A DNA stretch of 64,000 bases from a virus. The position numbers and the translations under genes were made by a program. Each line of letters begins with the position of its first letter. Position 1 is the stretch's first letter. The notes under the pieces were generated by a model. That model did no database searches and was not told the DNA's origin. It worked only from the letters and a program-made list of their open reading frames with translations. The DNA lies in IMG/VR virus record IMGVR_UViG_3300011115_000650; one strand, given 5' to 3'. Below are positions 6,110 to 61,043 of the stretch, piece by piece.

Positions 6110-6640
6110 CTATTTTCTTTGCTTATCATGCATCCATTGACCATCGTAGAGTTCAGCGGGTTGACATTCGTGGAAATAAATCTGAGCCACTCTTGCGTTT
6201 TCTTCAATAAAAATTGTCTCGTGTACGTATAAAAGTGTACCCATGAACTGAGTTTCAAAGCCTGGATCAAATACCGGGCTATTAATTATCGAACCATTAC
6301 GGTATAGTGAGGAACGCTGCTTAATAAATGCTACTCTATTATCGGGTATCTTACATCCTTCGTTAAAGGTTATATCGTATACACCTGGATATAAGATCCA
6401 TCCTATTGTACTGTCTAGAGTGGTTAAGCTTTGAGGGGTATAGGTAGTGAGATGTGTTTTATCTTTTAGTACCTTGCCAATCTTTCTTACCACCACTTCA
6501 TGAGGGGTATTGATTTCGTTAGGCACACCTATTTTATTCACCTGTTTTAAGGTAAGGTCATAACCCACTTGAGCTGGTTTGCCTTGTGTGTGTTCTAATA
6601 GTAATAGACCTTCGTCTATGATTTGTTTTGAGTTTAACAT
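6110..6640 (-). CDS. dCTP deaminase / trimeric dUTPase family protein
   Basis: GYDLT, RSSLYRNG, DPGF and ARVAQI motifs. Confidence 0.85.
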   Translation of the reverse strand: MLNSKQIIDEGLLLLEHTQGKPAQVGYDLTLKQVNKIGVPNEINTPHEVVVRKIGKVLKDKTHLTTYTPQSLTTLDSTIGWILYPGVYDITFNEGCKIPDNRVAFIKQRSSLYRNGSIINSPVFDPGFETQFMGTLLYVHETIFIEENARVAQIYFHECQPAELYDGQWMHDKQRK

Positions 6641-6641
6641 T

Positions 6642-6998
6642 CTAGTTATGTATTAGTGTATTTGTTGTTAATAAGTCTCTCAATTCGTAGTATATGTCCA
6701 TGCTTGGATCGATATAAATTACCTCTCCTGCTTTATATAATACAGGTACTCCTTGACGGAGTATTCGGGCATCTTCTAAGAAAGTAAACTTACGGGTACC
6801 TGTAAAGACGAATAGGTCTTGAGATAGGTGTTTATAAGGGACTATATTGTTTAGTTTCCTTCGTCTTCTATCACAACCACAATCCTCCTTACCTCTCAAT
6901 CTGGCGATAAACGTAGCTAGTTTATCCAGGCCAAAAAACTTGGTAAACTTAGCTACACTATCTCCTAGTCCTACTGCTTTAGTACTTCTTACTTCCAT
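6642..6998 (-). CDS. Conserved phage hypothetical protein (GLGD...DCGCxxRRxxLN)
   Basis: 118-aa ORF in operon with recognisable Cys motif. Confidence 0.65.
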   Translation of the reverse strand: MEVRSTKAVGLGDSVAKFTKFFGLDKLATFIARLRGKEDCGCDRRRRKLNNIVPYKHLSQDLFVFTGTRKFTFLEDARILRQGVPVLYKAGEVIYIDPSMDIYYELRDLLTTNTLIHN

Positions 6999-7698
6999 TT
7001 GCTAGTTCTATGTTTTTGTAGAACTCCGCTCTTGCAGAATCTTCATTTAGAAAGCATCCTGTCAACTTAGCTGTTTGCATTGATGCACCTTGATGTTTAA
7101 CACCTCTACACGATACACAGTTATGTGTTGCATTAATCATTACAGCTACTCCTAGGTTATCCTCACAGATCGTATTTACTGCATTGTGAATAGCTACAGT
7201 TAACTGCTCTTGTATAGCTCCTCTTCTTCCGAAGTGCTCTACAATACGGTTTAACTTAGATAGTCCTACTACCCTGCCGTGTTCACTAGGTACGTACGCT
7301 ATCGATACTGTTCCTGAGATAGTTTCAAGGTGATGACTACATACACTAGTTACTGGTATATTACTTTCTTGGACAATCCCAGAATATCCATCGCTTGGAA
7401 AGCTAGTAATTTCGTCCATCAGCTTATACCTACCTGCAAATTTATCTTTGACGTAAGCCTTAGCCACTCTCTTAGGTGTATTAGAACTATTTGGATCATT
7501 CTTCCAATCCACTCCTAGAGCGGTTAGGAAATTACCAAAATGTAGAGCAGCTTCTTCGATGATAGCCTCTTTATCTCCTTCTGTTAATTCACTCTTTCCC
7601 TCTTTTAGGTTATGAGCTAATTGCAGAGAGATGCCATTAGCATGACCGGGTTGAGCTATTTCTAGCTCATCGATTTTTATTTCTGTGTGTTTATTCAT
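6979..7698 (-). CDS. folE: GTP cyclohydrolase I
   Basis: TPKRVAK, SVCSHH, GLSKLNRIVE, QEQLT and HNCVSCRGV motifs. Confidence 0.95.
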   Translation of the reverse strand: MNKHTEIKIDELEIAQPGHANGISLQLAHNLKEGKSELTEGDKEAIIEEAALHFGNFLTALGVDWKNDPNSSNTPKRVAKAYVKDKFAGRYKLMDEITSFPSDGYSGIVQESNIPVTSVCSHHLETISGTVSIAYVPSEHGRVVGLSKLNRIVEHFGRRGAIQEQLTVAIHNAVNTICEDNLGVAVMINATHNCVSCRGVKHQGASMQTAKLTGCFLNEDSARAEFYKNIELANGSKKY

Positions 7699-53385: not shown

Positions 53386-54615
53386 TTAAATATTTGGTTT
53401 TTTGATACCAGCTAATTGCTGCATACGGTAAACATATGAATCAGCTTCTACGATTGGTCTAGCTGGAGCTGAACCAATTGGTTTTGATGCAAAGCCTAGA
53501 GACTCTTTAAGTTGTCCTTTTGTTACAGGAGCATTAACTTGTAAAGAATCTTTTAATGTTGCGTAAATGTTTTTTGCTTCGTTGATAGTTGTTGCTCTAT
53601 CAAAAGCAGCTAGAACTTTTACTTTCTGACCTTCATTTAGGTTTTTTGCTTTATATAACTTATTAACGTAAAGTAATTTAGCGTTTAGAAGATTAAGTTC
53701 GTTTAATTGAGCTTTTAAAACGTGTATCGTCCTAATAGCCTCTTTTAAATCTTCTTTCTCTTTCTTTTCGTCTTCTTTCTTCTTGTCTTCTTTTTTCTTG
53801 TCGTCTTTCTTCATAACCATTTTCTTTTTGCCTTCCATAAGACCGATCTCTGCTAAGATTTCATCTAAAGAGATAGTTTCGTCGCCTTCTTCGTCAGCTG
53901 TTACTGTCATATCTTCGCCACCTTCTAGGTCTTCTTCACCACCTTCTTCAGGTTGTGTTTTACCGCCCATTACGTCTGCTACGATATCACGAACTAAGTT
54001 TTTAAACTCTTCAACTGATAATTCAGCTACTTCACCTTCTGCTTCTTCTGTTGCTTCTTCTGCATCATCTGCTTCTTCAGCATCTTTGTCATCGTCTTTT
54101 TTAGCTTCTGATTTAACAGCTTTACTATAGCCATGATCTCCACCTCTTGTCTTATCAGACTGAGGTTCTTTCTTGTCTATTTTTACAGCTGTATAACCTG
54201 CTACGTGACCTTCTTCAAGAGCATCTCCATCGTCTAAGTCGTCTACTGCATCCTCGTAATCATCTTCAAGACCTTCCTCTAATTCTAGCTCAGCTAGGAT
54301 TTCGTCTAGAGTCATTTCTTCTAAATCTGTTCCGTCTGGATCAGTCATTTTGTCGCTATTAGACTGTTGAACGTCAACTGAAGGCTTTTGTTGACCCATT
54401 TCATAACCATGTTCATCTTCGATACCTTCTCTCTCCATATCTTCTTGCATGTCATCGTATCCTTCATCTTCCATCTCTGAAAGTTTAAGGCGGAACATCT
54501 CTTGAATCTTTGGAGCAAATGTTTCTTCGATTTGTTGTTTTGCGTTAGCTAAAGAAATTTCTTTCAGTGCTTTGGCATCGGCAATCGCTTGCTCGAATAA
54601 ATCTTTGTTTGCCAT
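53386..54615 (-). CDS. Prohead core / scaffold protein
   Basis: Acidic coiled coil; AIADAK, LNELNLLNAKLLY; C-terminal RMQQLAGI; between protease and capsid genes. Confidence 0.8.
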   Translation of the reverse strand: MANKDLFEQAIADAKALKEISLANAKQQIEETFAPKIQEMFRLKLSEMEDEGYDDMQEDMEREGIEDEHGYEMGQQKPSVDVQQSNSDKMTDPDGTDLEEMTLDEILAELELEEGLEDDYEDAVDDLDDGDALEEGHVAGYTAVKIDKKEPQSDKTRGGDHGYSKAVKSEAKKDDDKDAEEADDAEEATEEAEGEVAELSVEEFKNLVRDIVADVMGGKTQPEEGGEEDLEGGEDMTVTADEEGDETISLDEILAEIGLMEGKKKMVMKKDDKKKEDKKKEDEKKEKEDLKEAIRTIHVLKAQLNELNLLNAKLLYVNKLYKAKNLNEGQKVKVLAAFDRATTINEAKNIYATLKDSLQVNAPVTKGQLKESLGFASKPIGSAPARPIVEADSYVYRMQQLAGIKKPNI

Positions 54616-54642
54616 TTTTGTTAATTGTTTTTTGGACTTCTG

Positions 54643-54727
54643 ATTGCTTATTGGGGTTGGGGAAGCAATATAGTGAATTGTAAATTCGTTTAATACCGTA
54701 TTGGGACGGCATATATAATCATAAATA
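54643..54727 (-). promoter_or_regulatory. Late promoter plus structured 5' leader of the scaffold-capsid operon
   Basis: TATTTAT at 54721; hairpins GCCGT-CCCAAT-ACGGT, GAATT-TAC-AATTC, ATTGCTT-CCCCAACCCCAAT-AAGCAAT. Confidence 0.6.
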
Positions 54728-54748
54728 TGTCACTTCTTTTGTAAACAC

Positions 54749-54780
54749 AAAAAAAGTTCGTATTTTTTACGAACTCTTTC
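54749..54780. terminator. Intrinsic terminator after the prohead protease gene
   Basis: A-run GTTCGTA-TTTTT-TACGAAC T-rich. Confidence 0.7.
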
Positions 54781-54803
54781 TTTTATTGTATTGTGGTTTT
54801 GCT

Positions 54804-55427
54804 TTATTTTAGACAGCAGATACCTGTTTGAGTACAGATCAACTCTCCTATTATCTGATTGGCTTTCCTGTATGGTGATTCAAATACCGGGTTATAACCT
54901 TCGTTTAATCCTCCTACCGGTTTAACAAATGCTCCATAGGTTGAAGGTGTTGATACGAAATCCCAACATATTAATTCTAAGTCATCCTCTACCTGTACCA
55001 GGCCTTCTCCTAGTGGAGTAACCGATCCCATCGCTCTAGAACTTACACCAACATTGATGTTGTTCATAAATAATTCTTTTAGGATATTACCTGATGGTGT
55101 TGCTAGGATTTCGAATTCTCCATATAAGTCATCACCCTCCCACCATAACCTAGTCATATTATGACATACGTTCTTAAGATTGATAATACCCGTTTCAGGG
55201 TGATCTAACTCTCCTAAAGCTCTCTTCTCGGCCACCGGTCCTGATATATAGCTAGCTACCTCTCTTCTCAAAGAAGGTCCATAGACTCTCTTATTGGCAT
55301 TAGGTTTACCTTCAGACTGTATCTTTCCAGATACAATTAAATTCTTGCTTGGATTAAACCTTGCTTCATTTAATTGAGTGGGTTGAGGTTGGAAGGTTAG
55401 GTATTCTATTAAGACTTGTTTACTCAT
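54804..55427 (-). CDS. Prohead protease (T4 gp21-like)
   Basis: NANKRVY, ALGELDHP, GVSSRAMGS, WDFVSTPST. Confidence 0.93.
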   Translation of the reverse strand: MSKQVLIEYLTFQPQPTQLNEARFNPSKNLIVSGKIQSEGKPNANKRVYGPSLRREVASYISGPVAEKRALGELDHPETGIINLKNVCHNMTRLWWEGDDLYGEFEILATPSGNILKELFMNNINVGVSSRAMGSVTPLGEGLVQVEDDLELICWDFVSTPSTYGAFVKPVGGLNEGYNPVFESPYRKANQIIGELICTQTGICCLK

Positions 55428-57208
55428 TATGCTTTTTTAAATACTTGGTTAAACTTAGGGTCTCTTATTGTCTTTTGATCTGCTGGATCTGCTGGATTGA
55501 AAGACTGTACATTACCTGATTTGGTGTTCTTATATAAATCTTCTTTAATCTTCTTAGCTACAGTCTCTTTGATCTTTTTTAACTGTTTAGCTTTCTTGTC
55601 TTCCATCATCTGACCTTTGATAGGGAATTCATTTGATTTACCCATACCTAAGACATTATTAACAGCGTGTTGGATCGTTTTTTCGTTATACTTCTTAGAC
55701 ATTACAGTCGTTTTAACTGATTGTCCTTCTTCTGTATCTGTATCAATCTCAGCATCCGGTATTTGCTGTTTTAGTTTAGCTAATTCACCTGCTTTAAAGT
55801 GCCCGTTAAATGTATAATCACCACCTTCGTTTAAAGATTCTTTCATCAATTCAACACCTTTAGGTAGTTTATCATTAGACTTCATAGTCTTTATTCCACC
55901 CATTGATTTCTTTGATGGCTTCATCTCTTTTACGCCCTCTGGTCCACCTTTAGCTCTCTCTTTTTTACTTTGATTAGTTTGAGTATTAGATTTAGCATCT
56001 GTAAATCCTTTGATCTTTGTTAAAGCGTCCGGACCTACTTTTAGTTCTTTTGGATGTTGAAGTAAACCTGATTTCTTTTCGAACTCAGCTGAAATCATAT
56101 TTGTATAGTATGCAGGATCTTTTTCAAGATTCTTTAATACCTTTTTGGTAGCCTTAGCAAGTGTTTCAGGATTGAATTCAGGTGTGAAGTATTTAGGAAT
56201 TGGTTTGTACTGCATTCCCATCTCTATATTAACACCTCTTTTAAATTCATAAGGATTAACTCTATCGATTTCATCGAAAACAGAATATAGATCTTTACCT
56301 GTTACGTGTTTGTAGTAGCCTTCACTCTCTTCCTTAGCTTCATTTACTCTACCTCTCTTCTTTTTACCCTCATTTAAACTCTCTTCAGCATATACATCTC
56401 CAATTTCGTCTGGGTTACTAGTATGTATGATTGTCATGCTACTACCAATACCTTCGTATTCATTTTCAAAGTATTGTCTAGCTTCAGTTTCATCTTCAGC
56501 CATTGTACTATCTACAATCTCTCCGCTATCAGATACTAGGTAGAAAGGTTTCTTACCTCCCGTCGATACTTCATCTTCATTCATTTCACTTCTCCACTGT
56601 GCTTTATCACGGTTCATTTGACCTTTAGTCTCAGCATCCATAGCATCTTCTAGTTTCTTGTCTATCATCTGTAGAGTAACAGCCTTATCAGGGTGATTTG
56701 ATGTACTAACTAGCTCTCTAGCTTTCATTAGTTTCAATTCATTACCGTCAAAATCACCGTCAAAAACGTGTTCTATCGCTGAACTAACAGTCATACTGTC
56801 CTCTTCGTTTAATTCTGTATCTTCAGACATTTCCTTGTACCACTGTGCTTTATCATAGTCTATTTGACCTTTAGTTTCGGCATCTGACCAGCCATTTTTC
56901 CACAATTCTGATCTATGACTATCAGTGAAAGGACAATCTCTTAGAGACTTACCATCTTCATTATCCCTAACACCCATTTTAAAGGGATCTATATGCCCTA
57001 ATTCGTTATAAACATCGCTTATTCTATTATTTTCTCTAATATCTGCTTCACTCAAGATTCTCTTATTCTTTAAAATGCTTACAGCATCTTGATAACTATT
57101 TACAGATGAGATCCAATCAGGAAATTGACGTCTAACGTTAGTCATAAAGTTAGCTTTCGACATCTTACCTTCGTTCAGATCACGGTATTGTTGTACTATT
57201 GATTTCAT
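55427..57208 (-). CDS. Modular internal head protein / polyprotein containing an RMF-like module
   Basis: About 10 (L/I/M/V)xE sites; G...E...KNL.KDP.YY domain; GKS...CPF...W..GW..A; internal 45-bp duplication. Confidence 0.65.
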   Translation of the reverse strand: MKSIVQQYRDLNEGKMSKANFMTNVRRQFPDWISSVNSYQDAVSILKNKRILSEADIRENNRISDVYNELGHIDPFKMGVRDNEDGKSLRDCPFTDSHRSELWKNGWSDAETKGQIDYDKAQWYKEMSEDTELNEEDSMTVSSAIEHVFDGDFDGNELKLMKARELVSTSNHPDKAVTLQMIDKKLEDAMDAETKGQMNRDKAQWRSEMNEDEVSTGGKKPFYLVSDSGEIVDSTMAEDETEARQYFENEYEGIGSSMTIIHTSNPDEIGDVYAEESLNEGKKKRGRVNEAKEESEGYYKHVTGKDLYSVFDEIDRVNPYEFKRGVNIEMGMQYKPIPKYFTPEFNPETLAKATKKVLKNLEKDPAYYTNMISAEFEKKSGLLQHPKELKVGPDALTKIKGFTDAKSNTQTNQSKKERAKGGPEGVKEMKPSKKSMGGIKTMKSNDKLPKGVELMKESLNEGGDYTFNGHFKAGELAKLKQQIPDAEIDTDTEEGQSVKTTVMSKKYNEKTIQHAVNNVLGMGKSNEFPIKGQMMEDKKAKQLKKIKETVAKKIKEDLYKNTKSGNVQSFNPADPADQKTIRDPKFNQVFKKA

Positions 57209-57357: not shown

Positions 57358-57663
57358 TTAGTAATTTTGGTCGTCTAGTAATTTAATTCTCTCGATAATA
57401 TATTCGTAGATATCTTCTTCATCGAAGCCTTCTTCTTTTAGGTCACGTATAATCTTTCCTGCTGCTGCGATTAATCGTTTAACAGAATCGATCGGTGCTA
57501 ATCCATCCATTCTCTCCATAGCTTCTAAAGAAGTCTCAGTTACTTGGTTGGCGGCTGTTTCTTCATCAGATGGTGCTGGTGGTAGATCGTTACCTTCGGT
57601 TCTAATGTAAGGGCCTACTCTGTTTTCAGATATAAACTTCCTTAGGTCAAAATTGTCTGACAT
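57358..57663 (-). CDS. Putative internal head protein
   Basis: N-terminal FDLRKFISE; head module location. Confidence 0.6.
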   Translation of the reverse strand: MSDNFDLRKFISENRVGPYIRTEGNDLPPAPSDEETAANQVTETSLEAMERMDGLAPIDSVKRLIAAAGKIIRDLKEEGFDEEDIYEYIIERIKLLDDQNY

Positions 57664-57664
57664 A

Positions 57665-58207
57665 TTATTTTAGTTTTTTCGTTTTTATGTATGTGTGTTT
57701 AATCATTTCCTGGATCTGTTCTAAAGCTCTCTCGGTATGTTTCATATACTTGAAGTCTTCTGAACTCTCTGTAATCTCTGATCTCAATCTCTGAGTATAT
57801 TCTAATAATCTATCCAGTTCTACGATTTTTTGTTTGATTGTCTTGACTGCTTTATGTAACTGCTCGGGTGCATTCCTTTTAGAAGTCTCCGTTCTAAACT
57901 TACCGTAATTCTCTACTATAGGATCTTCTTCAAATAACTGCTTGTAGTCGATTGCCTTTGAAGCACGGTTAGGTTTATGAGGTACGGGAGTGAATCCAAA
58001 ATGAGAAACAGCATAATTGTCTTTGACCTTACCTGCTGCTAACTTAGGTTCTACATCCTTCTCCTCTTTCTTGGGTTTCTTAACCCTAACAGGTGTAAAG
58101 GTCTGTTCTCCAGTACCGCCTTGAGTATTAGCACCAGTCGTTACTCCTCCACCTGTTCCAGATGTTTCTTTATATAGAGTCTCTAGTATAGTATCTATCT
58201 CACTCAT
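57665..58207 (-). CDS. Putative head-assembly / internal protein
   Basis: 180 aa; LYKET, LFEE, IVEN; C-terminal coiled coil. Confidence 0.6.
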   Translation of the reverse strand: MSEIDTILETLYKETSGTGGGVTTGANTQGGTGEQTFTPVRVKKPKKEEKDVEPKLAAGKVKDNYAVSHFGFTPVPHKPNRASKAIDYKQLFEEDPIVENYGKFRTETSKRNAPEQLHKAVKTIKQKIVELDRLLEYTQRLRSEITESSEDFKYMKHTERALEQIQEMIKHTYIKTKKLK

Positions 58208-58210
58208 ATG

Positions 58211-59071
58211 TTATTTAACTGGATTTAGTTCTTTATATAATTCAAAGTATTGAAGTAATGATACTAGATGCTCATCCTTAATAGATTGACGCTCTGTAAT
58301 AGGTTTAGCTAAATTGATTACTTCTTTTAACTTGATTGTTACTACTTGATCTTTTACAGTGGGAAGTAATGCAGTTAGTTTTTGTCTAACCTCTACTATC
58401 TTCTTATTCAAATAGGTTTTTAATTGTGTAGTATCTGAGATATTAGCAATATACTCTTTTAAGATATCTTTTTGATCGTCAGATAATTCTTTGTAAGTTT
58501 CGTTATACTTCTCTACAATTAATCTGTAGGCTAATATTCTAATATCTTTATCCTCTTTTAAGAATTCTTGGACTGCTTTCTTCTCAACTTTTGCCGGTGT
58601 GCTAAACGCTTGAGAGATGTGTTCTAAGAGGGTAATTTTATTTGTGATAAGATGTTTAGTGCTTACAAGATCCTTTGATCTCCCCGCTTCAAACAACGTA
58701 TAGATAGCTGCTGAGGTCTTATAGTTGTCTATCTTAGCTTTAAAGAAATTTTCTACATCATAGTACTTTTTAATCTCTTTAATTAAGTTATATTTTTCTC
58801 TATTTAATACGTCCTTATCTAATTTCTTACTCTCTTCTAGTACAGTATTAATCAAACTCTCTGCCTTCGTTTCAGTTAGTTTTGGTGCTTTAGTTAGAGC
58901 ATTATAAAGATTGAATTCCTTCAATAGCTCAGTGTTAGTAAAGAATTTCTTTATAATCTTAACTGCTCTTGAGTCTTGATTAGACACCATATCTGCTGTT
59001 ACCTGTCTAACAAGTAGTTCAAACAGTATTCCGGTGTTCTTATATTTTGAATGTTTCTTTATATTATTCAT
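58211..59071 (-). CDS. Conserved head-module protein downstream of portal
   Basis: KHSKYKNTGILFELLVRQ; late motif at 59094. Confidence 0.7.
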   Translation of the reverse strand: MNNIKKHSKYKNTGILFELLVRQVTADMVSNQDSRAVKIIKKFFTNTELLKEFNLYNALTKAPKLTETKAESLINTVLEESKKLDKDVLNREKYNLIKEIKKYYDVENFFKAKIDNYKTSAAIYTLFEAGRSKDLVSTKHLITNKITLLEHISQAFSTPAKVEKKAVQEFLKEDKDIRILAYRLIVEKYNETYKELSDDQKDILKEYIANISDTTQLKTYLNKKIVEVRQKLTALLPTVKDQVVTIKLKEVINLAKPITERQSIKDEHLVSLLQYFELYKELNPVK

Positions 59072-59108: not shown

Positions 59109-61043
59109 TTATTGAATCTCCTCTATTATATTGGCTTCGTCTAAAAGAGTTGGTTCTTCGAATAAAGTAACTTTTCGGTTAAGACCTATCTGATCAAGGC
59201 TTGACTTCAAATTATTATAAACTACCCTAGTATGTATACCCTCTAATGATAGTGCTGAACCACCCTGGTATTTAACTCTCATAGCTCCATCTTCACCTCC
59301 AGCAGGTTTTGCTTTCAGATCGTATGTACCCATCCTATCTCTACCTAAAGGATCGTTAGCGGTACCAATGAATGAATTCTTTTCTTGAGGTCTTCCCGGT
59401 ACTTTTGTTGGTTCTAAAGGATTTTTTTCATTATAACCTACCGGTACATCTGCTGCTGCTGTATAATTGGCGTTACCACCGTATAAGCTAGCGATTTGGT
59501 GCGGTGTACCAAAGGCTTGACCTGATTCTAGAGGATCATTACCCTCAGCTTCAATCTGATCGTATCTAAACTTACGTTTCTTATCTTCTAATACCTGAGC
59601 TTTAACATCATCTAATTGATCATCGCTTAATTGGAAGATCTTATCATAGATCCAATCAGTTGGGAATAGGTTACTATCCATCATCTGTGTTGCTAGATCT
59701 ACTTTTTCTTTCATCAATGCAATCCTTTCTTGGTCGTAGATGATTGACGGTGTGGTTAGGTTTAATTCAAAGTTTACCATCGTCTCATCTCTATACCCTT
59801 GTGTGTATAGGTGTACTAATGCTATCTTAGTTAATTCAGATAGTACAATACGTTGGATACGTTCGATAGTTCTAGCAAAACGAATATCTTCTGCTGCTAG
59901 AGTAGCTTTGCCGGTTAGATCTTTCTCATAACCCATAAATGCTTTAGGTATTTTTAGAGCAGCAAATAACTTATCTCTTAAATACTGTACGTCTTCAATA
60001 CCGTTATACTGTAGACCGGGTACAGTCTCGATACGGGTTGCAGTATCATTACCTCTTACTGGAATAAAATAATCTTCTAGTAAGTTCTGCATGTTATACT
60101 TTAGATTATATTGACCGGTTTGTGGATCAATATACGGTATCTTCTTCATTTTAGAGATCATTCTCTGCATATAAGTCTCAACCTCATTAGGAGGTATCGC
60201 ACCTACGTTAACAAAGTAAGCTCTCTTATCCGGGGCACGTACTATACGATGTATCATCATCGCATCCTCCATTAAGACCATTTGTTTGAATATCTTTCTA
60301 CCTGGTTCTAAGTAAGATCTACCATAAGGCAGGTAATTAACGTCTCCTAGTAGTCTAAAGTGTGCCATTTCATAGTTCTCAAAGTACATTGAGTCTGTTT
60401 GACCTAGTAGGTTAGCATAAGCTCCCACATAACCACTAGCACCAGATGATACTGCGGTAGGGTCGTACTTGAATCTTACATAGGAAGGGTTTCTTAGATC
60501 TGTACCCTCTTCTCTTACTATGGTATAGGCTGAGAAAGGTATTACGTTATATACACCTACCTTCTCTGCAATCTCTAATTTTAGATAGAAATCACCAAAT
60601 TTAGTCATATTTCTTATCCACGACCATAGATTGAATTCTATGTTGAGTACATCGTAGAATAGGTTGTATAGTATCTTTTGAACGTTTTCATCTGAAGATC
60701 TAATCTGTAGGACCTCTTGGGCTTCATTCTTTAGAGTACATTCATCTGAGATGATATCTAGAGCTGATGCAATGATAGCATCTGTGTCCATAGCTTCGTA
60801 ATCGGCATAGAGCTGAATACGCATAGCTTGGTAGTTCTGTGTTGTATTTAGGTTGTAGGCGTAAGAGTTTGAAGTGGTGTATACCCTATTAAACCTATCA
60901 ATGAGTGCATTTGTCTGCAATACACCGTTGGTCTGAATACGGTCTGTATCCATTACCTTGATCTCATTACCGCCAATGTTACGAATGATTACATCAGTGG
61001 AAAAGAGTCTCTTAAGACTACTAAATAAATTGTTTTCTGCCAT
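59109..61043 (-). CDS. Portal protein (T4 gp20-like)
   Basis: YGRSYLE, LMEDAMMIHRIVRAPDKR, EDYFIPVRG, ALKIPKAF, EDIRFARTI. Confidence 0.95.
   Translation of the reverse strand: MAENNLFSSLKRLFSTDVIIRNIGGNEIKVMDTDRIQTNGVLQTNALIDRFNRVYTTSNSYAYNLNTTQNYQAMRIQLYADYEAMDTDAIIASALDIISDECTLKNEAQEVLQIRSSDENVQKILYNLFYDVLNIEFNLWSWIRNMTKFGDFYLKLEIAEKVGVYNVIPFSAYTIVREEGTDLRNPSYVRFKYDPTAVSSGASGYVGAYANLLGQTDSMYFENYEMAHFRLLGDVNYLPYGRSYLEPGRKIFKQMVLMEDAMMIHRIVRAPDKRAYFVNVGAIPPNEVETYMQRMISKMKKIPYIDPQTGQYNLKYNMQNLLEDYFIPVRGNDTATRIETVPGLQYNGIEDVQYLRDKLFAALKIPKAFMGYEKDLTGKATLAAEDIRFARTIERIQRIVLSELTKIALVHLYTQGYRDETMVNFELNLTTPSIIYDQERIALMKEKVDLATQMMDSNLFPTDWIYDKIFQLSDDQLDDVKAQVLEDKKRKFRYDQIEAEGNDPLESGQAFGTPHQIASLYGGNANYTAAADVPVGYNEKNPLEPTKVPGRPQEKNSFIGTANDPLGRDRMGTYDLKAKPAGGEDGAMRVKYQGGSALSLEGIHTRVVYNNLKSSLDQIGLNRKVTLFEEPTLLDEANIIEEIQ

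What the first reader, a model, noticed from the sequence alone, without database searches (positions are those of the whole stretch)
56879..56986. Ribosome-modulation-factor-like module hidden inside a head polyprotein
Seen: residues 79-110 of the 593-aa head-region protein read GVRDNEDGKSLRDCPFTDSHRSELWKNGWSDA. They align without gaps to the E. coli RMF core as I recall it (GYQAGIAGRSKEMCPYQTLNQRSQWLGGWREA), conserving G, G, S, CP(F/Y), W, GW and A. The module is bracketed by putative protease sites (ILSE/IRE/YNE before; MSE/LNE after). Established: RMF is a gammaproteobacterial ribosome hibernation factor, and the fold also occurs in small phage proteins. Inference: the prohead protease releases an RMF-fold peptide that is injected to act on host ribosomes or defence proteins.
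Basis: partly seen in the sequence, partly recalled or inferred. Interest (0 to 1): 0.75.

Follow-up and report, generated by a model that had tools for sequence, protein, structure and literature searches.

The report
Acidic RMF-fold cassette in phage head protein
A T4-like phage of Flavobacterium-type hosts carries, inside a highly variable head-assembly protein, a swappable 80-residue module that really is related to the bacterial ribosome-silencing factor RMF. The module has the opposite electric charge, so it is more likely packaged head cargo of unknown target than a ribosome silencer.

Summary
Residues 75-110 of the 593-aa ORF (55427-57208, minus strand) carry the RMF signature G..G..CP[FY]..W..GW..A. 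The window sequence alone is below every curated cutoff (Pfam RMF 20 bits against 27.9). A profile of five orthologous phage modules finds only RMF among solved structures (2JRM, E=5.5e-6). In a 1.8-billion-protein library, 61 of 75 scanned hits are Pfam RMF and no other family matches. An AlphaFold model has RMF as its top Foldseek hits.

The gene lies just upstream of the S77 prohead protease in 80 of 80 related viral loci. It is a mosaic: a conserved N-domain, exchangeable cassettes and a conserved C-part. About 8% of members carry the RMF cassette. A relative with ~96% identical flanking DNA lacks it cleanly. L/I-x-E sites, the T4 protease motif, are position-conserved at domain borders.

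The module is strongly acidic (pI 4.4) whereas RMF is basic, and it is embedded, not free-standing. It is therefore an Rmf/CrpP-fold member but not an RMF. Cleavage, packaging and injection are inferred, not shown, and action on ribosomes is unlikely.

The scan has noted acidic RMF-fold phage modules before on other DNA, some of them head-associated. Verdict: new variant of a known kind, moderate interest.

The parts
55427..57208 (-). 593-aa mosaic head 'carrier' gene (P0001): conserved N-domain, three cassettes, conserved C-part
   Evidence: ORF. 76 homologues. Always directly upstream of the S77 protease in 80/80 viral loci. The full-length AF2 model shows folded beads joined by low-pLDDT linkers.
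57047..57208 (-). Conserved N-domain (res 1-54), with L11-N-E13|G and L52-S-E54 sites; candidate capsid-targeting propeptide/domain
   Evidence: pLDDT 90-95. LxEG is present in 119/134 members and [LIV]xE after ILKxK in 134/134, with the middle residue free.
56804..57031 (-). Predicted released fragment, res 60-135 (76 aa), between IRE59 and LNE135, holding the Rmf-fold module and its tail helix
   Evidence: Site positions. Family-wide bracketing by [LI]xE gives fragments of 66-185 aa. RMF family hits on exactly this fragment.
56879..56986 (-). Rmf/CrpP-fold core (res 75-110), the reported feature
   Evidence: Gapless HMMER alignments to RMF chains. AF2 core pLDDT 89-91. Foldseek top hits are 2JRM and 9IOT_y, the latter at rmsd 1.2 A over 42 columns.
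56795..57046 (-). Whole exchangeable cassette (res 55-138), absent from the closest relatives
   Evidence: The DNA alignment with L001 shows a clean ~230-nt indel within ~96% identical flanks. P0003-P0007 (84-92% identical) lack it.
56812..56884 (-). Cassette tail/boundary repeat, copy 1 (DAETKGQ..DKAQW..EM.ED)
   Evidence: Direct repeat D1, 73 nt, 78% identical, spacing 246. The same tail follows Rmf modules in other carriers.
56566..56638 (-). Boundary repeat, copy 2, closing cassette 2 (res 136-212)
   Evidence: The module HMM gives a second weak hit at res 190-212.
56369..56572 (-). Cassette 3 (res 213-280), a small alpha/beta domain ending at LNE280|G
   Evidence: pLDDT 90-94. The same cassette lies before, not after, the Rmf cassette in P0009/P0023.
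55826..56368 (-). Conserved C-part of the carrier (res 281-461), ending at LNE461|G
   Evidence: Nearly invariant columns E290-M429 in A1. No Pfam or PHROG family.
54804..55427 (-). Prohead protease (Peptidase_S77, T4 gp21 type), with a GLNE|G site near its C-terminus
   Evidence: Pfam E=4.9e-20. PHROG 207 E=1.7e-42. LNEG site.
53386..54615 (-). Acidic scaffold protein with an NLNE|G site and the C-terminal RMQQLAGIK motif
59109..61043 (-). T4-type portal (gp20)
   Evidence: Pfam PF07230 E=2.2e-65.

Best explanation
The 593-aa gene encodes a prohead-core 'carrier' protein of a T4-like phage of Bacteroidota (Flavobacterium-type host). It has a conserved N-terminal domain, a conserved C-part and, between them, small folded cassettes that recombine in and out between near-identical phages. 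One cassette (res 55-138) is an acidic member of the Rmf/CrpP fold with a family-specific extra C-terminal helix.

Shown: homology and fold of the module; the cassette polymorphism; fixed synteny next to the S77 protease; position-conserved L/I-x-E motifs at domain borders.

Inferred, by analogy with T4 gp21 substrates and internal proteins: the carrier is built into the prohead core, and the protease cuts after Glu at the L/I-x-E sites, freeing a ~76-aa Rmf-fold peptide (res 60-135). That peptide either stays in the head and enters the host with the DNA as a variable host-interaction or counter-defence factor, or is expelled with the scaffold debris.

Because the fold's RNA-binding face is charge-inverted, it most likely binds a protein or mimics nucleic acid. 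It is unlikely to dock on 16S rRNA as RMF does.
For: Homology: the profile of 5 phage modules (A2) has RMF chains as its only hits with E<=0.004, namely 2JRM 5.5e-6, 4V8G 3.3e-3 and 6H4N 4e-3. It gives 92 hits in 1.8e9 proteins. Of the 75 scanned, 61 match Pfam RMF and no other family matches. NCBIfam Rmf_CrpP matches 46 and Rmf_like_phage 16. Five of 69 full-length homologues hit Pfam RMF, best E 1.7e-5.

Fold: AF2 pLDDT is 89-91 in the core. The top Foldseek hits are RMFs, with prob 0.93-0.97 and rmsd 1.2 A over 42 columns. VIA gives Z 5.0 for 4V8G, tied for top.

Cassette: present in ~12 of 149 members, with a clean indel against L001 and a different cassette order in P0009/P0023.

Head context: the order portal-p286-p180-carrier-protease-scaffold holds in 80/80 loci.

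Protease sites: LxEG in 119/134 members, [LIV]xE in 134/134 and 53/53 at the three conserved borders, with a free middle residue. LNEG occurs 5 times in the window (0.45 expected), all in carrier, protease and scaffold, P~8e-7. The 135, 280 and 461 sites lie in or at the ends of linker segments with pLDDT<50.

Second carrier: the same Rmf cassette occurs in P0092, P0121 and P0166. These belong to a family encoded between protease and scaffold and ending in the scaffold's own C-terminal RWQxxAGIK motif.

T4 precedent: L/I-X-E cleavage, capsid targeting sequences and ejected, non-conserved internal proteins are described in PMC9026906.
Against: There is no proteomic or biochemical evidence that this protein is in virions, is cleaved, or that any fragment is retained or ejected. 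Overall L/I-x-E density in the carrier (1.3 per 100 aa) is not above the window average, so the case rests on positional conservation. T4's ejected internal proteins are basic whereas this module is acidic, like core debris that T4 mostly expels. There is no detectable homology to T4 IPs, gp67 or gp68, or to any PHROG or Pfam head family, outside the Rmf module. The window sequence alone fails every curated cutoff for RMF families. The Foldseek E-values (0.5-0.8) are not significant on their own, because the domain is tiny.
Confidence: 0.55

Rival explanations
1. One reading: the released peptide is a functional RMF analogue. It binds host ribosomes, near the anti-SD region of the 30S subunit, and modulates or silences translation after injection.
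For: True homology to RMF and the same two-helix fold. The structural signature residues are conserved. The head-protein context is compatible with delivery.
Against: The module is acidic (net -11, pI 4.4; orthologues -11 to -16) whereas RMF is a small basic protein (PMC8778775). RMF's Arg/Lys/His positions align with Asp, Glu or neutral residues. It scores 17.7-22.7 bits against the 40-bit equivalog cutoff. rmf is carried mainly by Gammaproteobacteria (PMC8778775), while the nearest cultured relative infects Flavobacterium. The stand-alone proteins its profile recruits are also mostly acidic.
Confidence: 0.07
2. The carrier is only a prohead core or scaffold accessory, like T4 gp67/gp68. The cassettes are acidic filler that tunes core assembly, and they are degraded and expelled before DNA packaging. 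The Rmf fold is then just a convenient small stable domain with no role in the host.
For: It occupies the gp67/gp68 position between portal and protease. It is acidic, like the scaffold. T4 core proteins are cut into fragments that mostly leave the head (PMC9026906). The neighbouring p286, p180, p101 and scaffold genes are rich in L/I-x-E.
Against: Presence/absence and order of folded cassettes differ between phages with ~96% identical flanking DNA. The same cassettes are shared with a second carrier. That pattern is typical of accessory, diversifying functions rather than of an assembly part. The cassettes are well-folded domains, not disordered filler.
Confidence: 0.28
3. The protein is not processed. 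It acts as one long multi-domain protein, either a minor internal or portal-proximal head protein or a non-structural assembly chaperone, and the L/I-x-E motifs are coincidental.
For: L/I-x-E is short and expected about 1.3 times per 100 aa by chance. No cleavage data exist.
Against: Three motif positions are kept in 89-100% of 134 members while the middle residue varies freely. All five LNEG tetrapeptides of the window fall in carrier, protease and scaffold. The sites coincide with predicted domain borders and low-confidence linkers.
Confidence: 0.1

Closest known systems
Ribosome modulation factor RMF (Pfam PF04957; NCBIfam NF011162; PDB 2JRM, 4V8G, 6H4N, 9IOT)
   Same: Homologous two-helix hairpin with the G..G..CP[YF]..W..GW..A signature. 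RMF chains are the only PDB hits with E<=0.004 for the module's profile, and they are the top structural matches.
   Different: The module is embedded in a 593-aa phage head protein and is acidic instead of basic. It has an extra ~25-residue C-terminal helix (AETxKQ..HD....). It falls below the equivalog cutoff, and the host is probably not gammaproteobacterial.
Rmf/CrpP-fold small proteins of mobile elements and phages (NCBIfam NF041886 Rmf_CrpP_fam, NF041887 Rmf_like_phage, NF033696 CrpP_fam)
   Same: Same fold superfamily, and mostly acidic. These are the proteins that the module's profile recruits from the 1.8-billion-protein library. Their function is unknown.
   Different: Those are free-standing genes of 46-115 aa. 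Here the domain is an internal, exchangeable cassette flanked by protease-type sites in a head-assembly carrier. The window module does not itself match NF041887.
T4 internal proteins IPI/IPII/IPIII and Alt (capsid targeting sequence, gp21 processing, ejection)
   Same: Encoded with a gp21-type protease. There is a short N-terminal segment ending in L-x-E. The payload is highly variable between related phages. The logic of packaging small folded proteins that can pass the portal is the same (PMC9026906).
   Different: There is no sequence homology. T4 uses separate genes, each with its own targeting sequence, and basic proteins. Here several cassettes are strung on one carrier polypeptide and are acidic. 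Packaging and ejection are untested.
T4 prohead core proteins gp67/gp68
   Same: Same gene position, between portal (gp20) and protease (gp21). gp67 is cut into fragments, one of which stays in the head (PMC9026906 Table 1).
   Different: Those are much shorter and are not known to carry exchangeable folded cassettes. No detectable homology.

Membership tests
Rmf/CrpP fold superfamily (Pfam PF04957 / NCBIfam NF041886) | Single-sequence score above the curated cutoff | tested here: not met
   Pfam gives 20.0 bits against GA 27.9. NF041886 gives 17.7-18.8 bits against 28. Some orthologous cassettes do better: 5 of 69 homologues hit PF04957 at E<=0.01, best 1.7e-5, and P0023 and P0047 carry a precomputed PF04957 hit.
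Rmf/CrpP fold superfamily (Pfam PF04957 / NCBIfam NF041886) | Profile-level, reciprocal homology to family members | tested here: met
   The A2 profile scores E=5.5e-6 against 2JRM, and RMF chains are the only PDB hits with E<=0.004. Of the 75 library hits scanned, 61 are PF04957 and no other family matches.
Rmf/CrpP fold superfamily (Pfam PF04957 / NCBIfam NF041886) | Signature G-x-G...CP[YF]...W..GW..A on a helix-linker-helix fold | tested here: met
   The signature residues are invariant in A2. The AF2 model has helix 21-30, a linker and helix 43-80, with core pLDDT 89-91. Foldseek ranks 2JRM and 9IOT_y first, and 6H4N_v fourth at rmsd 1.5 A.
NCBIfam NF041887 Rmf_like_phage | Match to the model | tested here: not met
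   Not listed for the window module even at E<=10. It matches 16 of the 75 library relatives.
RMF proper (ribosome hibernation factor, NF011162 equivalog) | Equivalog score cutoff (40 bits) | tested here: not met
   17.7-22.7 bits.
RMF proper (ribosome hibernation factor, NF011162 equivalog) | Small free-standing basic protein (~55 aa) | tested here: not met
   The module is embedded at res 55-138 of 593 aa. Net charge is -11 and pI 4.4. RMF is described as a small basic 55-aa protein in PMC8778775.
RMF proper (ribosome hibernation factor, NF011162 equivalog) | Gammaproteobacterial setting with HPF partner | tested here: inconclusive
   The only cultured relative infects Flavobacterium. No host genome is held for this window, so the host's hibernation factors could not be examined.
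RMF proper (ribosome hibernation factor, NF011162 equivalog) | Binds 30S near the anti-SD region and promotes 100S dimers | not testable with these tools
   Needs ribosome binding and sedimentation assays.
T4-type packaged/processed head-internal proteins (gp21 substrates) | Encoded in a head module with a gp21-family (S77) protease and a T4 portal | tested here: met
   Synteny holds in 80/80 loci.
T4-type packaged/processed head-internal proteins (gp21 substrates) | N-terminal propeptide and internal sites of the form L/I-x-E | tested here: met
   L11-N-E13|G is kept in 119/134 members, [LIV]xE54 in 134/134 and the pre-C-domain site in 53/53. LNEG clustering has P~8e-7. This shows the motif only, not cleavage.
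T4-type packaged/processed head-internal proteins (gp21 substrates) | Sequence homology to T4 IPs, Alt, gp67 or gp68 | tested here: not met
   Pfam and PHROGs give no head-protein family for the whole protein or for its parts.
T4-type packaged/processed head-internal proteins (gp21 substrates) | Found processed in virions and ejected into the host | not testable with these tools
   Needs virion proteomics and infection assays.

The most novel reading that the evidence does not exclude
T4-like phages of Bacteroidota use one or two hypervariable head-core carrier proteins as a 'cassette rack'. Small folded effector domains are swapped between phages by recombination at shared boundary sequences, are cut free by the prohead protease and are injected with the DNA. 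On this reading the acidic Rmf-fold cassette is a nucleic-acid-mimicking or protein-binding counter-defence or take-over effector. This would give the large orphan family of acidic Rmf/CrpP-fold phage proteins its first functional setting.
Probability: 0.25. Interest if true: 0.75.

Novelty: new variant of a known kind. Interest (0 to 1): 0.5.

Why it matters
Acidic Rmf/CrpP-fold miniproteins are common in phages and mobile elements, and none has a known function. Finding the fold as an exchangeable, protease-bracketed cassette in two different head-core carriers suggests where it acts: inside the capsid, and possibly in the first moments of infection. The natural cassette-plus and cassette-minus phages form an experimental pair.

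The carrier itself would extend the T4 idea of a capsid targeting sequence plus variable internal proteins to a polyprotein format in an ecologically abundant group of aquatic Bacteroidota phages. It might also be usable for delivering proteins in those hosts.

The finding also warns against annotating such modules as 'ribosome modulation factor', as one source already does for homologue P0042.

Tried and rejected
The genomic contexts of P0023, P0042, P0047, P0092 and P0121 could therefore not be fetched. IMG/VR loci from the search for related loci were used instead.
- No whole genome is held for the window, so RMF and HPF could not be sought in a host or in the rest of the phage.
- A scan of cellular genomes with the module profile found no relative. 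The patterns were very strict, so this is not evidence of absence.
- A viral scan for the 249-aa N-terminal-Rmf protein P0083 found nothing.
- Foldseek of the full-length model against BFVD and PDB gave only uncharacterised phage proteins and non-significant KH-like matches for a small alpha/beta domain.
- The ESM Atlas on the conserved C-part gave nothing above 0.76.
- Pfam and PHROG scans of the N-domain, cassettes 2 and 3 and the C-part gave no credible family.
- Literature searches found no functional study of phage Rmf/CrpP-fold proteins, no link of CrpP to counter-defence, and no virion proteomics for Immutovirus.
- I considered overall L/I-x-E enrichment in the carrier as evidence and rejected it. 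Its density equals the window average.
- I considered that the resemblance might be chance or compositional bias and rejected it, given the profile E-values and the reciprocal family recovery.
Full report
**What is at the coordinates.** The minus-strand ORF 55427-57208 encodes 593 aa. Coordinates 56879-56986 are residues 75-110 and contain the quoted string exactly. All neighbours are on the same strand. They are a T4-type portal (59109-61043, Pfam PF07230 E=2e-65), three unannotated genes of 286, 180 and 101 aa, the 593-aa gene, and a Peptidase_S77 prohead protease that overlaps its stop by one base (54804-55427; Pfam 4.9e-20, PHROG 207 1.7e-42). After these come a very acidic scaffold (53386-54615) and the major capsid gene. 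The only cultured relatives are the Flavobacterium phages vB_FspM_immuto (Immutovirus), which show the same gene order.

**Is the RMF likeness real?** Yes, but it is a superfamily-level likeness.
- Residues 60-135 alone give RMF as the best hit in Pfam (PF04957, E=7.5e-4, 20 bits against a 27.9 cutoff).
- NCBIfam gives NF011162 RMF at 6.8e-5, NF041886 Rmf_CrpP_fam at 8.9e-4 and NF041856 at 2e-3.
- Among PDB sequences, 2JRM is the top hit at E=0.076, aligned without gaps.
- None of these passes a curated cutoff.

I then collected orthologous modules from related viral contigs (L006, L009, L010, L011) and aligned them with the window module (A2). The invariant columns include G, G, CP, LWK, GW, AET, Q and D. 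This profile hits RMF chains at 2JRM 5.5e-6, 4V8G 3.3e-3 and 6H4N 4e-3, and the only other row has E=6.4. Against 1.84 billion representative proteins it finds 92 proteins at E<=1e-3, most of them 46-115 aa long. Of the 75 I scanned, 61 match Pfam RMF and no other Pfam family appears. NCBIfam assigns them to RMF, Rmf_CrpP_fam, Rmf_like_phage, CrpP_rel and CrpP_fam.

An AlphaFold2 model of the cassette has pLDDT 89-91 over the core and shows helix, linker and a long helix. Foldseek ranks RMF first and second among 350,542 chains: 2JRM at prob 0.93, and 9IOT_y at prob 0.97 with rmsd 1.2 A over 42 columns. 6H4N_v follows at rmsd 1.5 A. The E-values of 0.5-3 are not significant, as expected for a 40-residue fold. 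VIA-align gives Z=5.0 for 4V8G, tied for top. Five of 69 full-length homologues hit Pfam RMF on their own (best 1.7e-5), and one source already names homologue P0042 'ribosome modulation factor'.

**Not an RMF.** RMF is a small basic 55-aa protein carried mainly by Gammaproteobacteria, and it binds the 30S subunit near the anti-SD region (PMC8778775). The window cassette has net charge -11 and pI 4.4; its orthologues range from -11 to -16 with pI 4.1-4.4. The small free-standing proteins recruited by its profile are also mostly acidic, with a median net charge of about -5. In the HMMER alignment, RMF's Arg/Lys/His positions face Asp, Glu or neutral residues, and only the structural core is kept. 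The equivalog cutoff is missed by a wide margin. The module also has a family-specific extra helix after GW (AETxKQ..HD..x..), which RMF lacks.

**What the gene is.** A protein search gave 76 homologues, and an IMG/VR scan gave 370 related stretches, of which 80 loci were kept. In all 80 the order is portal, p286, p180, (p101), this gene, protease, scaffold, and the gene usually abuts or overlaps the protease start. Its length ranges from about 290 to 915 aa.

The alignment (A1) shows three regions:
- a nearly invariant N-terminal part of ~54 residues;
- a non-alignable middle;
- a conserved part from about residue 290 to 430.

The middle is made of cassettes. The Rmf cassette is present in about 12 of 149 non-identical members. 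The closest relatives (P0003-P0007, 84-92% identical) lack it: their sequence runs from ...KRILSE through an 8-residue linker straight into MTVSS.... At the DNA level, the window and L001 are about 96% identical on both sides of a clean ~230-nt indel. L001 in turn has a ~100-nt cassette after EMNED that the window lacks. In P0009 and P0023 the window's third cassette comes before the Rmf cassette rather than after it.

The tail of the Rmf cassette (DAETKGQ..DKAQW..EM.ED) recurs at the end of cassette 2. This is a 73-nt direct repeat, 78% identical.

The full-length AlphaFold model shows confident small domains:
- N-domain 1-55, pLDDT 90-95;
- 141-209, pLDDT 79-92;
- 220-276, pLDDT 90-94;
- 300-400;
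- 463-520.

These are separated by segments with pLDDT below 50. The Rmf cassette itself is poorly modelled in that run because few rows of A1 contain it.

**Protease sites.** T4 gp21 cuts after Glu in L/I-X-E. Its substrates include core proteins, which are cut to pieces, and internal proteins, whose 10-19-residue N-terminal capsid targeting sequences are removed. [quoted passage not shown]

In the 593-aa protein, L/I-x-E occurs at E13, E54, E59, E135, E280, E461, E548 and E556. This density is not above the window's average, so counts alone prove nothing. The positions, however, are conserved:
- L-x-E-G at residues 11-14 in 119 of 134 members;
- [LIV]-x-E right after the ILKxK motif in 134 of 134;
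- [LIV]-x-E within 12 residues before the conserved C-part in 53 of 53 members that have that motif.

In each case many different residues occupy the middle position, which is the behaviour expected of a P3/P1 recognition motif. The tetrapeptide LNEG occurs five times in the ~20,000 residues of the window (0.45 expected). All five are in the carrier (three), the protease C-terminus and the scaffold, which together make up 6% of the residues, giving P about 8e-7. Every Rmf cassette in the family is bracketed by [LI]xE, giving predicted fragments of 66-185 aa; for the window this is residues 60-135, 76 aa. The neighbouring genes p286, p180, p101, protease and scaffold carry 3.4-4.6 such motifs per 100 aa against about 1.3 elsewhere, as expected of core proteins that are degraded.

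**A second carrier.** Three library proteins with the Rmf cassette (P0092, P0121, P0166; E 1.7e-6 to 8.8e-4 library-wide) share a different conserved N-terminus and end in ...RRWQHYAGIK. Relatives that are 83-90% identical over their conserved parts are encoded between the protease and the scaffold in another branch of the same phage group (L082-L087), where the first carrier is only ~172 aa long.

Their C-terminal motif is the scaffold's own conserved C-terminus: RWQxLAGIK or RMQxLAxIK in most of the 59 scaffolds seen, and RMQQLAGIK in the window. Pieces of this second carrier, and one of its cassettes, also occur as cassettes in the first carrier (L016, L046, L079, P0094). The Rmf cassette thus belongs to a pool shared by two different head-block carriers. 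This supports a role tied to the capsid interior.

**Most likely mechanism.**
- Shown: an acidic Rmf/CrpP-fold cassette; a mosaic carrier fixed next to the prohead protease; conserved T4-type site motifs at domain borders.
- Inferred: incorporation into the prohead core through the conserved N-domain (or, in the second carrier, through the scaffold-type C-terminus), followed by cleavage by the S77 protease into small folded pieces.
- More weakly inferred: retention and ejection of the Rmf-fold piece as a variable host-interaction or counter-defence factor.

The cassette polymorphism between near-identical phages argues for an accessory, diversifying role. Acidity, and the T4 precedent that acidic core fragments mostly leave the head, argue for the rival 'core debris' reading. 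I put about 0.9 on Rmf-fold homology, about 0.7 on head-core location with processing, about 0.35 on ejection into the host, and under 0.1 on RMF-like ribosome action.

**Comparison and novelty.** Phage Rmf/CrpP-fold proteins are already catalogued (NF041887), and T4's targeting-sequence and internal-protein system is classic. What appears undescribed in the literature I could search is the fold as an internal, exchangeable, protease-bracketed cassette of head-core carrier polyproteins in Bacteroidota T4-like phages.

Earlier notes of this scan on other genomes report acidic RMF-fold modules in phages. Two are in presumed head proteins (e1-5406462, e1-5335830) and one is a ten-gene array (e1-5979871). 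They agree with my reading but were not tested here and are not independent evidence.

Verdict: observation confirmed, interpretation partly supported, new variant of a known kind, interest 0.5.

Noticed in passing
window 57665-58207 (p180) and its counterparts, e.g. L068:3609-5651 and L006:4282-5862: The gene two places upstream of the carrier also varies greatly in length across the 80 related loci, from about 158 aa to about 680 aa. It may be a second modular head gene.
   Followed up: no
window 53386-55427 and 57358-59071: L/I-x-E motifs are 3-4 times denser (3.4-4.6 per 100 aa) in p286, p180, p101, the protease and the scaffold than in the rest of the window (~1.3). This is consistent with their being protease-degraded core proteins.
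   Followed up: partly
L086:8007-8999, L084:8007-8675, L082:3404-4021: A second mosaic carrier gene lies between protease and scaffold in a sister lineage. It has a conserved N-terminus, variable cassettes and a C-terminus (..RRWQHYAGIK) that copies the scaffold's conserved C-terminal motif. Library relatives P0092, P0121 and P0166 carry the Rmf cassette.
   Followed up: partly
window 53386-53430 (scaffold C-terminus) and the scaffolds of L001-L080: The scaffold C-terminal motif RWQxLAGIK / RMQxLAxIK is conserved in most of the 59 scaffolds examined. It is a candidate capsid-binding tag.
   Followed up: partly
L001:5839-7674 compared with window 55427-57208: L001 has a ~33-aa cassette after EMNED and a further basic insert before the conserved C-part. 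The window lacks both. Cassette gain and loss therefore runs in both directions between genomes about 96% identical in the flanks.
   Followed up: partly
proteins P0081, P0087, P0101, P0134 and P0115 (library hits): Other proteins carry 3-7 tandem Rmf-fold copies, among them a 3363-aa protein with 7 matched stretches. P0081's copies look less acidic. Their contexts are unknown.
   Followed up: no
L050:6001-6369 and 6389-7516: In this locus the carrier gene is split into two ORFs. This could be a frameshift, a pseudogene or a natural split.
   Followed up: no
homologue alignment A1: Single family members carry cassettes that hit GyrI-like/Cass2 (5e-4) and DUF5661 (6.7e-10). These hint at the breadth of the cassette pool.
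   Followed up: no
window 55430-55825 or 56369-56572 (small alpha/beta domains of the carrier): Foldseek on the full-length model gives weak, non-significant KH-domain-like matches (E 0.15-0.7, prob up to 0.96) for one small alpha/beta domain.
   Followed up: no
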